Part shown: piece by piece, positions 3,084 to 3,857 of the stretch
How the letters are laid out: each line of letters begins with the position of its first letter
Numbering within the stretch: position 1 is the first letter of the stretch
From: a virus
Lineage: Duplodnaviria > Heunggongvirae > Uroviricota > Caudoviricetes
Length of the DNA stretch: 14,511 nucleotides
Virus record (IMG/VR): IMGVR_UViG_3300029079_000067
Reading direction: 5' to 3' (one strand)
Notes under the pieces: generated by a model
Databases searched by the model: none
What the model was told of the DNA's origin: nothing
What the model saw: the letters and a program-made list of their open reading frames with translations, nothing else
Made by a program: the position numbers and the translations under genes

Positions 3084-3857
3084 ATGGATATTACTGAGTT
3101 TCCTTCTGGAGTAATTGAACACCTTGGCTGGTATGTATACCGATTGATTGATCCGAGGGACGGAAGCACCTTCTATGTAGGGAAAGGCAAAGGTAACCGC
3201 GTATTTGCCCATATGCGCGGTGAAGTGGCAGCGACTGATGATGACGAGTTACTGAGCAACAAGCTAAAGCAAATTAGAGAAATAAGGTTAGCAGGACTTG
3301 AAGTTATCCATGTCATCCATCGACACGGAATGACTGATGAAAAGACGGCGTACGAAGTTGAAGCTGCACTTATTGATGCCTACCCTGGGTTAACGAATAT
3401 CATGAATGGTGCTGGCAGCAATGAATTCGGCGCCGCGCATGTCAAAGAGTTGATAGCAACATATCAACCCGAAACCATAATATTTCATCATAAAGCATTA
3501 ATGATTTCCGTTAACAGAAGTGCAAAGGATTCAGAGCTTTATGATGCGGTTCGATTTAGCTGGCGCATTAATGTCTCTCGCGCCAGCCAAGCAGAAGTCA
3601 TTCTTGCTACTGTAAGGGGGATCGTTCGAGGGGTTTTCATTGCTGATAAATGGCTCAAATCAACACGTGAAAATTTCCCTACGATGAAATACTGGGACGA
3701 GGATCCTGACTTTGAGGCAACACAAAGTTCTCGCTATGGTTTTGAAGGTCGAGAAGCCCCACCTGAAATAGCAAATCTTTATCTTGGAAAAAAAATACCA
3801 GATGAATTAAGAAAAAAAGGAGCTATGTCCCCGGTCCGTTACTCACCTAATTTTTGA
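3084..3857 (+). CDS. GIY-YIG nuclease-domain protein with an uncharacterised C-terminal domain of about 150 aa
   Basis: 257-aa ORF. N-terminus has the GIY-YIG signature [28 protein letters not shown] (two Tyr-containing strands about 11 residues apart, then a conserved Arg), followed by a candidate catalytic Glu ([11 protein letters not shown]) and Asn (LTNIMNG). No obvious Shine-Dalgarno before the ATG at 3084, so the start is tentative. Confidence 0.65.

What the first reader, a model, noticed from the sequence alone, without database searches (positions are those of the whole stretch)
3084..3857. GIY-YIG nuclease-domain protein at the position where e14 carries mcrA, between pin and an R-M system
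The GIY-YIG motifs are readable in the first ~100 residues, while the ~150-residue C-terminal part is unassigned and could be a specificity or sensing domain. In E. coli K-12 prophage e14 the gene next to pin is mcrA, a modification-dependent HNH restriction nuclease. Here the same slot holds a different nuclease fold next to a full EcoRII-like R-M pair, which suggests a defence-gene exchange hotspot and a possible solitary restriction, type IV-like or abortive-infection nuclease. Function is not established by the sequence.
Basis: partly seen in the sequence, partly recalled or inferred. Interest (0 to 1): 0.7.

Follow-up and report, generated by a model that had tools for sequence, protein, structure and literature searches.

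The report
Known hydroxymethylcytosine-dependent restriction nuclease (CMoRE/PD-T4-3)

Summary
The ORF at 3084..3857 (+), 257 aa, is real and is annotated identically in its source genome, E. coli DP051.

- **Identity.** It matches the PADLOC PD-T4-3 model over its full length (E 4.7e-140). It is 252/257 identical to E. coli O157:H7 CMoRE (PDB 9U75/9U8D).
[quoted passage not shown] Its N-terminal GIY-YIG domain cuts DNA and its C-terminal domain senses 5hmC/5ghmC. Cleavage follows CN11/N9G, and 5mC or plain C DNA is not cut. Defence against T2/T4/T6 is direct, not abortive.
- **Residues.** Every residue that paper names is present here: Y17, Y19, Y31, acidic loop D52-E55, R80, V92, L96 and Y127. 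My alignment adds R39, E93 and N105.
- **Context.** Homology to K-12 e14 ends exactly at the pin stop codon. In other E. coli genomes the slot beyond pin holds mcrA, CMoRE, Avs2 or unknown genes, and beyond CMoRE lie a retron I-C, an S1 peptidase, an AraC gene or this R-M pair.
- **R-M pair.** It is genuine EcoRII plus a Dcm-type methylase. It lies beyond a serU-type att relic and looks like a separate insertion.

Verdict: already known, low interest.

The parts
3084..3857 (+). CMoRE / PD-T4-3 coding sequence (257 aa plus stop)
   Evidence: ORF. PADLOC PD-T4-3 E 4.7e-140, residues 1-256 on profile 1-255/256. PHROG 5356 E 2.3e-143. PDB 9U75 E 2.4e-171. 252/257 identical. RefSeq CDS has the same coordinates.
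3165..3413 (+). [quoted passage not shown] The whole domain starts near aa 1 and includes the GIYxY strand at aa 15-19.
   Evidence: Pfam PF22945. Crystal-structure description of the orthologue.
3126..3182 (+). 'GIYxY-YIG' motif: G15 W16 Y17 V18 Y19 ... F30 Y31 V32 G33
   Evidence: Read from the sequence. Y17, Y19 and Y31 are invariant in alignment A4. Published mutations of Y17, Y19 and Y31 abolish nuclease activity in vitro and impair defence; Y19F keeps more defence than Y19A.
3198..3200 (+). R39, the inferred catalytic arginine
   Evidence: Invariant in A4. The paper says the catalytic Arg and Glu are conserved with UvrC but gives no residue numbers, so the number is my inference.
3237..3248 (+). 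Acidic loop D52-D53-D54-E55, the autoinhibitory 'lid'
   Evidence: Read from the sequence. O157:H7 has DDDD and APEC O1 has DDDE. Published 4A mutant gains activity on ordinary DNA and is toxic.
3360..3398 (+). E93 ... N105: inferred catalytic or metal-binding Glu and the conserved Asn of the GIY-YIG fold
   Evidence: Both invariant in A4. The spacing E-x11-N matches my recollection of UvrC E76/N88, which is an inference.
3462..3854 (+). C-terminal modification-sensing domain (about aa 127-257). Y127 contacts the 5-hydroxyl of 5hmC through its main-chain oxygen.
   Evidence: Pfam-unassigned. The 5hm-dCTP complex structures place the ligand on this domain. W160, W190, R217, K236 and P239 are invariant in A4. 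The domain start is approximate.
2905..3083 (+). Upstream region that travels with the gene in all five E. coli loci compared. It presumably carries the native promoter.
   Evidence: Alignment A2. No promoter reached the scan threshold in this stretch, so the promoter is inferred only. The paper obtained defence from native-promoter constructs.
2883..2904 (.). Relic of a tRNA-Ser(CGA) (serU)-type attachment-site core. It marks the ancestral end of the pin-CMoRE prophage arm.
   Evidence: 19 nt (2886-2904) are identical to K-12 serU. In EDL933 the match continues through the 3' part of serU.
3915..4469 (-). Context: pinE-type serine invertase, convergent with CMoRE
   Evidence: Pfam Resolvase plus HTH_7. 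RefSeq calls it pinE. About 95% identical to e14 pinE, and homology stops at the stop codon.
4536..4551 (+). Context: the only Pin crossover site in the window (TTGGTTTGGGAGAAGG)
   Evidence: The site sequence is taken from PMC12529663.
1..1209 (+). Context: EcoRII restriction endonuclease (402 aa, complete)
   Evidence: PDB 1NA6 808 bits over residues 1-401. Pfam EcoRII-N and EcoRII-C. RefSeq CDS.
1244..2677 (-). Context: Dcm/M.EcoRII-type C5 cytosine methyltransferase
   Evidence: Pfam DNA_methylase and DNA_meth_N. PADLOC MTase_II E 4.2e-230. RefSeq start used.

Best explanation
The gene encodes an orthologue of CMoRE (Cytosine Modification Restriction Endonuclease), the single-gene defence system first named PD-T4-3. 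[quoted passage not shown]

Mechanism, taken from published work on a 98%-identical protein and inferred to apply here:
- The protein forms a tetramer, a dimer of head-to-tail dimers.
- The C-terminal domain binds 5-hydroxymethylcytosine or glucosyl-5hmC on incoming T-even phage DNA. Two modified cytosines about 21 bp apart are needed.
- The N-terminal GIY-YIG domain, with Mg2+ or Mn2+, makes a double-strand cut between them. The pattern is CN11/N9G with 2-nt 3' overhangs.
- An acidic loop (D52-E55) lies over the active site and keeps the enzyme off ordinary and 5mC DNA.
- Phage DNA is degraded early, the host chromosome is untouched, and the cell survives. This is direct defence.

Because 5mC is not a substrate, the enzyme is compatible with the adjacent EcoRII/Dcm-type R-M pair. 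That pair covers unmodified DNA, and CMoRE covers phages that escape R-M by hypermodifying cytosine.
For: - **Identity (shown here).** Full-length PADLOC PD-T4-3 match at E 4.7e-140. PDB 9U75/9U8D at E 2.4e-171 and 9U7U/9U7Z at E 7.1e-150. 252/257 identical to O157:H7 CMoRE with no gaps.
- **Residues (shown here).** All residues named in the paper are present: Y17, Y19, Y31, R80, V92, L96, Y127 and a run of four acidic residues at 52-55. Y17, Y19, Y31, G33, K34, G35, R39, E93 and N105 are invariant down to 31% identity.
- **Substitutions (shown here).** The five differences are T51, E55, I133, Q168 and N196. They fall at positions that also vary among homologues, and E55 and N196 match the crystallised APEC O1 protein.
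- **Prevalence (shown here).** The gene is intact in 823 of 5,426 complete E. coli genomes at 95% DNA identity or better. The ~180 bp upstream region is conserved with EDL933.
- **Function (from papers).** PMC12923530 reports about 10^5-fold restriction of T2/T4/T6 from native-promoter constructs and normal growth at MOI > 1. It also reports cleavage and binding of 5hmC/5ghmC DNA but not C or 5mC DNA, and that T4(C) escapes while T4(hmC) does not. It gives the CN11/N9G pattern, the structures, the mutants and the 4A loop mutant. Deleting PD-T4-3 in its native host sensitises it to Tevenvirinae. A 48%-identical Capnocytophaga homologue is also modification-dependent.
Against: - Nothing was measured for this allele or this strain.
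- It differs from the tested O157:H7 protein at five residues.
- The upstream region has a 3-bp insertion about 20 bp before the ATG, plus a few SNPs, relative to EDL933.
- No promoter or terminator passed the consensus scans near the gene.
- The carrying prophage is defective: the large terminase and the tail-fibre assembly gene are truncated and the integrase is frameshifted. Expression is therefore assumed, not shown.
- The APEC O1 orthologue gave only weak defence from its own promoter, so promoter strength varies between alleles.
Confidence: 0.93

Rival explanations
1. It is an abortive-infection nuclease. Infection triggers indiscriminate DNA cleavage, so the infected cell dies and the population is spared.
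For: Solitary prophage-borne nucleases are often Abi effectors. The published 4A loop mutant cuts ordinary DNA and is toxic, so the fold can damage host DNA.
Against: For the 98%-identical orthologue, and for the ECOR68 original, cultures grow normally at MOI > 1. Host DNA read depth is unchanged while T4 DNA is depleted. Neither 5hmC DNA nor 5hm-dCTP activates cleavage of ordinary DNA in trans.
Confidence: 0.02
2. It is a selfish GIY-YIG homing endonuclease, or a repair nuclease, with no defence role.
Against: These similarities are confined to the catalytic domain. The full-length match is to PD-T4-3/CMoRE. The gene is free-standing, not inside an intron, intein or interrupted host gene. The C-terminal domain binds 5hmC rather than a homing site. 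Cleavage shows no strict sequence requirement across the T4 genome.
Confidence: 0.02
3. The gene is an intact but silent or functionally weakened relic in a decaying prophage. It would contribute no defence in DP051.
For: The prophage has lost its head and tail genes and has a frameshifted integrase. No consensus promoter was found. The APEC O1 allele was weak from its native promoter. Many predicted systems show no activity in their native host.
Against: The ORF is intact and all functional residues are kept. The upstream ~180 bp is near-identical to EDL933, and the O157:H7 native-promoter construct gave about 10^5-fold protection. PD-T4-3 was one of only two systems active in its native host NILS69. 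343 E. coli chromosome or plasmid records carry the gene at 99% identity or better, which argues for selection on the coding sequence.
Confidence: 0.05

Closest known systems
CMoRE / PD-T4-3 of E. coli O157:H7 (PDB 9U75, 9U8D) and APEC O1 (9U7U, 9U7Z); originally found in ECOR68
   Same: It has the same length and two-domain architecture. It is 98% (O157:H7) and 85% (APEC O1) identical. It carries the same GIYxY-YIG motif, acidic loop, interface residues V92/L96 and 5hmC-contact residue Y127. In EDL933 the gene sits next to pinE in the same way.
   Different: There are five conservative or variable-position substitutions relative to O157:H7: T51A, E55D, I133T, Q168K and N196H. The neighbour beyond the gene differs too: an EcoRII R-M pair here, an AraC-family gene in EDL933.
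PvuRts1I / AbaSI family of 5hmC/5ghmC-dependent type IV enzymes
   Same: Substrate specificity is the same: 5hmC and 5ghmC are cut, C and 5mC are not. PMC12923530 and the abstracts of PMC4027163 and PMC4081097 describe this. From my own recollection, the cleavage geometry is nearly the same: two modified cytosines about 21-22 bp apart, a cut 11-13/9-10 nt away, and 2-nt 3' overhangs.
   Different: From my own recollection, the nuclease fold is unrelated (PD-(D/E)XK/Vsr-like rather than GIY-YIG) and the sensor is SRA-like. The CMoRE sensor domain has no detectable structural homologue. No sequence similarity was detected here.
EcoKMcrA (e14 mcrA)
   Same: It is a solitary type IV modification-dependent nuclease built from a sensor domain plus a nuclease domain. 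It occupies the same position immediately beyond pinE at the att-proximal end of an e14-type prophage.
   Different: McrA has an HNH nuclease at its C-terminus and an N-terminal sensor. It targets 5mC (C5mCGG) sites. It is co-oriented with pinE, whereas CMoRE is convergent with it. There is no sequence relationship.
GIY-YIG type II restriction enzymes (Eco29kI, Cfr42I, Hpy188I), I-TevI and UvrC
   Same: They share the GIY-YIG catalytic fold with its Tyr, Tyr, Arg, Glu and Asn constellation. UvrC is the closest structure to the nuclease domain.
   Different: They act on unmodified specific sites or on damaged DNA. The type II enzymes have cognate methylases. They lack the extra tyrosine, the acidic lid loop and the 5hmC sensor domain.

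Membership tests
CMoRE / PD-T4-3 | Single protein of about 255-260 aa that aligns end to end with the family profile and the crystallised members | tested here: met
   PADLOC residues 1-256 on profile 1-255/256 at E 4.7e-140. PDB 9U75 residues 1-257 against 6-262. 252/257 identical with no gaps.
CMoRE / PD-T4-3 | 'GIYxY-YIG' motif with three tyrosines (Y17, Y19, Y31) | tested here: met
   G15-W-Y17-V-Y19 and F30-Y31-V-G33 are read from the sequence. They are invariant in A4. The feature is defined.
CMoRE / PD-T4-3 | Conserved catalytic Arg and Glu (and Asn) of the GIY-YIG active site | tested here: met
   R39, E93 and N105 are invariant across seven sequences down to 31% identity. The residue numbering is my inference, because the paper's text gives none.
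CMoRE / PD-T4-3 | Negatively charged loop between helices alpha2 and alpha3 (four consecutive acidic residues) | tested here: met
   D52-D53-D54-E55 is identical to the APEC O1 loop. O157:H7 has DDDD.
CMoRE / PD-T4-3 | C-terminal modification-sensing domain with the 5hmC contact at Y127, plus oligomer-interface residues V92/L96 | tested here: met
   Y127, V92 and L96 are present. The C-terminal half differs from 9U75 at only three positions (I133, Q168, N196).
CMoRE / PD-T4-3 | Cleaves 5hmC/5ghmC DNA but not C or 5mC DNA, and restricts T2/T4/T6 by direct defence | not testable with these tools
   Shown only for orthologues.
Type IV (modification-dependent) restriction systems | A solitary nuclease with a separate sensor domain, needing no cognate methyltransferase | tested here: met
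   The gene occurs with many different neighbours (AraC, retron, peptidase, IS1, R-M), so no methylase is linked to it. The adjacent methylase here pairs with EcoRII.
GIY-YIG homing endonucleases (I-TevI type) | Located in an intron or intein, or inserted in a conserved phage gene, with a C-terminal sequence-specific DNA-binding domain | tested here: not met
   The ORF is free-standing between pin and an att relic. The only hit is a weak one confined to the catalytic domain, PHROG 314 at E 0.0038. The C-terminal domain is the 5hmC sensor.
Abortive-infection effectors | Death or growth arrest of the infected cell at high MOI | not testable with these tools
   The published orthologue data show the opposite: normal growth at MOI > 1.

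The most novel reading that the evidence does not exclude
The stretch between the pinE stop codon and the prophage end may be a defence-cargo hotspot of e14-like prophages that has not yet been described. It is marked here by a serU-type att-core relic.
- CMoRE is its commonest occupant in sequenced E. coli: 556 genomes have CMoRE contiguous with pin, against 330 with mcrA.
- Beyond the core, further cassettes such as the EcoRII R-M pair, a retron I-C or an S1 peptidase are added.
- In DP051 the R-M cassette carries an ssrA-3'-end-type sequence at one junction.

I found no paper describing this slot, but I ran only a few full-text searches.
Probability: 0.55. Interest if true: 0.3.

Novelty: already known. 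Interest (0 to 1): 0.12.

Why it matters
It matters little as a discovery. The family was found in 2022, was shown to be modification-dependent in 2025, and was solved structurally and mechanistically in January 2026. This allele is 98% identical to a crystallised protein.

Three minor points of value remain.
- The locus is a clean example of layered defence. An EcoRII R-M pair acts on unmodified DNA, and next to it sits a 5hmC/5ghmC-dependent nuclease acting on phages that evade R-M. The nuclease ignores the 5mC made by the neighbouring methylase.
- CMoRE, not mcrA, is the usual occupant of the pin-adjacent slot in E. coli.
- RefSeq still names the protein only 'LEM-3-like GIY-YIG domain-containing protein', so annotation lags behind the literature.

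Tried and rejected
**Searches that found nothing useful**
- NCBIfam gave no family for the protein.
- Pfam's generic GIY-YIG model was below threshold at 13.9 bits. Only the LEM-3-type model passed.
- Rfam on 2500-4700, and on loci L001 and L005, gave no credible RNA in the conserved upstream region. CssrB at 31 bits against a gathering score of 76 and IsrM at 13.6 bits were dismissed.
- ARAGORN found no tRNA in the window.
- The promoter and terminator scans found nothing near the gene beyond chance: 3 sites against 3.8 expected.
- Literature searches for a described pin/e14 hotspot found nothing specific.
- A search for WP_000143147 found no paper.

**Technical failure**
- Two BLAST scripts failed because locus L002 was not available to the Python machine. 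I used DNA alignment instead.

**Deliberately not run**
- The large protein-database searches, structure prediction and fold search. Crystal structures of a 98%-identical protein already exist, and the verdict could not change.

**Readings considered and rejected**
- Abortive infection, homing endonuclease and repair nuclease (see the rival explanations).
- The idea that the enzyme might depend on Dcm/EcoRII methylation. 5mC DNA is neither bound nor cleaved.

Full report
**Observation**

The window has an ORF at 3084..3857 on the + strand, ATG to TGA, encoding 257 aa. The window is 100% identical to E. coli DP051 (NZ_CP156034.1). RefSeq annotates the same CDS there as WP_000355481.1, 'LEM-3-like GIY-YIG domain-containing protein'.

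Pfam places a LEM-3-type GIY-YIG domain at aa 28-110, with E 2.2e-14 and 54.1 bits against a cut-off of 27. It leaves the C-terminal ~150 residues unassigned. The motif residues can be read directly: G15-W-Y17-V-Y19, F30-Y31-V-G33-K-G35, R39, E93 and N105.

**What it is**

- The PADLOC model PD-T4-3 matches end to end, at E 4.7e-140.
- PHROG 5356, of unknown function, does the same.
- The Protein Data Bank holds two crystallised orthologues. They are E. coli O157:H7 (9U75/9U8D, E 2.4e-171) and APEC O1 (9U7U/9U7Z, E 7.1e-150).
- Identity to the O157:H7 protein is 252/257 with no gaps.
- The differences, written window to O157:H7, are T51A, E55D, I133T, Q168K and N196H.

These structures belong to Liu et al., Nat Commun 2026 (PMC12923530). 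That paper renames PD-T4-3 as CMoRE.

**How it works (from the papers; inferred for this allele)**

- *Defence phenotype.* Native-promoter constructs reduce plating of T2, T4 and T6 by about five orders of magnitude. Cultures grow normally at MOI > 1, so defence is direct and not abortive.
- *Fate of DNA.* T4 DNA is depleted across its whole genome while host DNA is unchanged.
- *Substrates.* The purified enzyme uses Mg2+ or Mn2+. It binds and cuts 5hmC and glucosyl-5hmC DNA, but not cytosine or 5mC DNA. T4(hmC) stays sensitive, whereas T4(C) escapes.
- *Cleavage pattern.* Cleavage follows CN11/N9G with 2-nt 3' overhangs. It needs two modified cytosines.
- *Structure.* There is an N-terminal GIY-YIG domain closest to UvrC. 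It carries an extra tyrosine, giving a 'GIYxY-YIG' motif (Y17, Y19, Y31). A 15-residue acidic loop covers the active site. Replacing its four acidic residues with alanine raises activity, allows cleavage of ordinary DNA and is toxic.
- *Assembly.* The protein is a tetramer, and the V92S/L96S mutant disrupts it.
- *Ligand site.* 5hm-dCTP binds the C-terminal domain, with the hydroxyl contacting the main chain of Y127.
- *Fold of the sensor.* The authors found no sequence or structural homologue of the C-terminal domain.

Independent work supports the function. Deleting PD-T4-3 in its native host NILS69 sensitises it to Tevenvirinae. A 48%-identical Capnocytophaga homologue degrades T4 DNA but not T4-GT7 DNA, and it also degrades Mu DNA.

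**Does this allele keep the features?**

Every residue named in the paper is present: Y17, Y19, Y31, R80, V92, L96 and Y127. The four-residue acidic run is D52-D53-D54-E55, identical to the APEC O1 loop.

I aligned it with both crystallised proteins and four phage-borne homologues. These were Serratia phage Moabite, Pseudomonas phage OBP, Klebsiella phage N1M2 and Escherichia phage PhiR41_1, at 31-45% identity. The following residues were invariant:
- N-terminal domain: Y17, V18, Y19, F30, Y31, G33, K34, G35, R39, H43, E93 and N105.
- C-terminal domain: W160, W190, R217, K236 and P239.

The five substitutions fall at positions that vary in that alignment. I therefore assign the published function to this gene with about 0.93 confidence.

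What is not shown is expression or activity in DP051.
- No consensus promoter passed the scan.
- There is a 3-bp insertion about 20 bp before the ATG relative to EDL933.
- The host prophage is defective.

**Context: the e14 slot**

In K-12 e14 the order is stfE'/tfaE, pinE, mcrA, then attR (icdC). The window aligns to e14 at about 95% identity through the region upstream of pin and through pin itself. Homology ends at the pin stop codon. The gene therefore occupies the mcrA slot. Unlike mcrA, it is convergent with pin.

I inspected the same slot in nine other genomes taken from a spread of pin hits. With DP051 that makes ten.

| Strain | Content beyond pin |
|---|---|
| DP051 (this window) | CMoRE, then EcoRII R-M |
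| EDL933 | CMoRE, then an AraC-family gene |
| 2014C-3075 | CMoRE, then a retron Ec67 / type I-C RT-Toprim |
| DX6 | CMoRE, then an S1 peptidase |
| SL124 | IS1, then CMoRE |
| FORC_031 | Avs2 at one pin copy; CMoRE plus AraC at the other |
| F9792 | two genes with no PADLOC match |
| K-12, TUM9868, 19213 | mcrA |

Counts in 5,426 complete E. coli genomes:

| Feature (at least 80% of the query covered) | Genomes |
|---|---|
| pinE-type gene | 1,318 |
| CMoRE gene | 823 |
| CMoRE contiguous with pin | 556 |
| pinE contiguous with mcrA | 330 |

The 'defence-gene exchange' reading is supported, and CMoRE is the commoner occupant.

**Context: the R-M pair and the element**

The nuclease at 1..1209 is EcoRII itself or a close isoschizomer. 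It scores 808 bits to PDB 1NA6 over residues 1-401 and has both EcoRII Pfam domains. The methylase at 1244..2677 is a Dcm-type C5 enzyme.

The whole element sits at thrW. A frameshifted integrase lies beside tRNA-Thr, and a copy of the thrW 3' end lies about 650 bp left of the window start. This is the CP4-6 locus next to paoD/yagP'.

Immediately upstream of the CMoRE module, window 2886-2904 is identical to the anticodon arm of serU (tRNA-Ser CGA). In EDL933 the match runs on through the 3' part of serU. This looks like a relic att core marking the ancestral end of the pin-CMoRE arm.

In strains 2014C-3075 and DX6 a ~190-bp sequence is contiguous with that core. In DP051 the same sequence lies to the left of the R-M pair. 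The left junction continues into 25 nt matching the 3' end of ssrA. The R-M pair is therefore best read as a separate ~3.1-kb insertion at that core. It is not part of the pin-to-att cargo.

The R-M and CMoRE region is 40-46% GC, against 54-58% for the terminase region.

**Rivals**

- *Abortive infection.* It is excluded for the orthologues by growth at high MOI, by the intact host DNA, and by the lack of trans-activation.
- *Homing endonuclease or repair nuclease.* This rests only on catalytic-domain similarity and on inherited annotations in jumbo phages. The gene is free-standing, and its C-terminal domain is a modified-base sensor.
- *Silent relic.* This cannot be excluded without expression data. 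It is unlikely given the intact ORF, the conserved upstream region and the activity of native-promoter and native-host versions.

**Comparison and novelty**

The protein is a member of CMoRE/PD-T4-3. All sequence-level defining features were tested and met, and only activity could not be tested.

Functionally it parallels PvuRts1I/AbaSI in substrates and, from my recollection, in cut geometry. The nuclease and the sensor fold are both different. It parallels McrA in genomic position and in its modular logic.

The family was discovered in 2022 (Vassallo et al.), shown to be modification-dependent in 2025, and solved in 2026. The finding is therefore already known, and I score interest at 0.12. 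The only mildly new element is the description of the pin-adjacent slot and its att relics. I could not find this in the papers I searched, but that search was limited.

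Noticed in passing
window 9772-12211 (+), between the holin (9109-9435, -) and the Q antiterminator (12225-12587, -): A three-gene cluster of very low GC (31-35%, against about 55% in the flanks). It holds two proteins of unknown function (PHROGs 36401 and 29493) and an MBL-fold hydrolase. The hydrolase has only weak matches to defence-associated MBL proteins: PADLOC RTasMBL at 2e-11 and LmuA at 6e-7, and NCBIfam 6A-MBL at 27.6 bits against a cut-off of 220. 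The cluster is present in only 14 of 5,426 complete E. coli genomes, including ECOR29. In newer RefSeq annotations its first gene (WP_000143147.1) is called 'anti-phage protein'. It is possibly a defence system in the classic Q-lysis moron slot. I found no paper naming it.
   Followed up: partly
window 2883-2904; locus L001 10840-11048; L003 about 4985-5060: There is a relic att core identical to the anticodon arm of serU (tRNA-Ser CGA) just upstream of the CMoRE module. In DP051 the EcoRII R-M cassette (~3.1 kb) splits a sequence that is contiguous in strains 2014C-3075 and DX6. Its left junction carries 25 nt matching the 3' end of ssrA, the CP4-57 att region. Imperfect direct repeats sit at the two junctions: GCATACGACGTGGCTGCGGTTT and GCATACTATGTGTCTACGGTTTT.
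   Followed up: partly
window 4496-6832; Pin site at 4536-4551: The prophage is defective. A tail-fibre gene and a truncated tail-fibre assembly gene abut a 3'-truncated large terminase gene, so all head and tail genes are deleted. Only one Pin crossover site (TTGGTTTGGGAGAAGG) remains, so the P segment can no longer invert even though pin is intact. The integrase next to thrW is frameshifted.
   Followed up: partly
loci L012 (Serratia phage Moabite 3001-3765), L013 (Pseudomonas phage OBP 2992-3753), L014 (Klebsiella phage N1M2 2998-3744): Full-length CMoRE homologues of 39-45% identity, with both domains, are encoded by lytic jumbo phages. They are annotated 'homing nuclease' or 'G-I-Y Y-I-G endonuclease'. 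They keep the catalytic residues but lack the four-residue acidic lid, having KDASN, PHSTD or PRKSD instead. One possible use is against co-infecting phages with modified DNA. A 31%-identical homologue sits next to parA in the 108-kb Escherichia phage PhiR41_1.
   Followed up: partly
locus L008 (E. coli FORC_031), 1024-9821: Two pinE copies face each other across one invertible tail-fibre segment. One is followed by Avs2 and the other by CMoRE plus an AraC-family gene. This suggests two e14-like prophage ends joined by recombination, each keeping its own defence cargo.
   Followed up: no
locus L004 (E. coli F9792), 3962-5499: In this strain the pin-adjacent slot holds a 279-aa hypothetical protein and a '4-fold beta flower protein'. 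Neither has a PADLOC match. By position they are candidates for uncharacterised defence genes.
   Followed up: no
window 3881-3937 (-): There is a weak partial Rfam match to CssrB (Shigella sRNA B), at 31.4 bits against a gathering score of 76. It lies in the 57-bp gap between the convergent CMoRE and pin stop codons and overlaps the pin 3' end. The same match recurs at the equivalent place in strain 2014C-3075. It is probably not meaningful.
   Followed up: no
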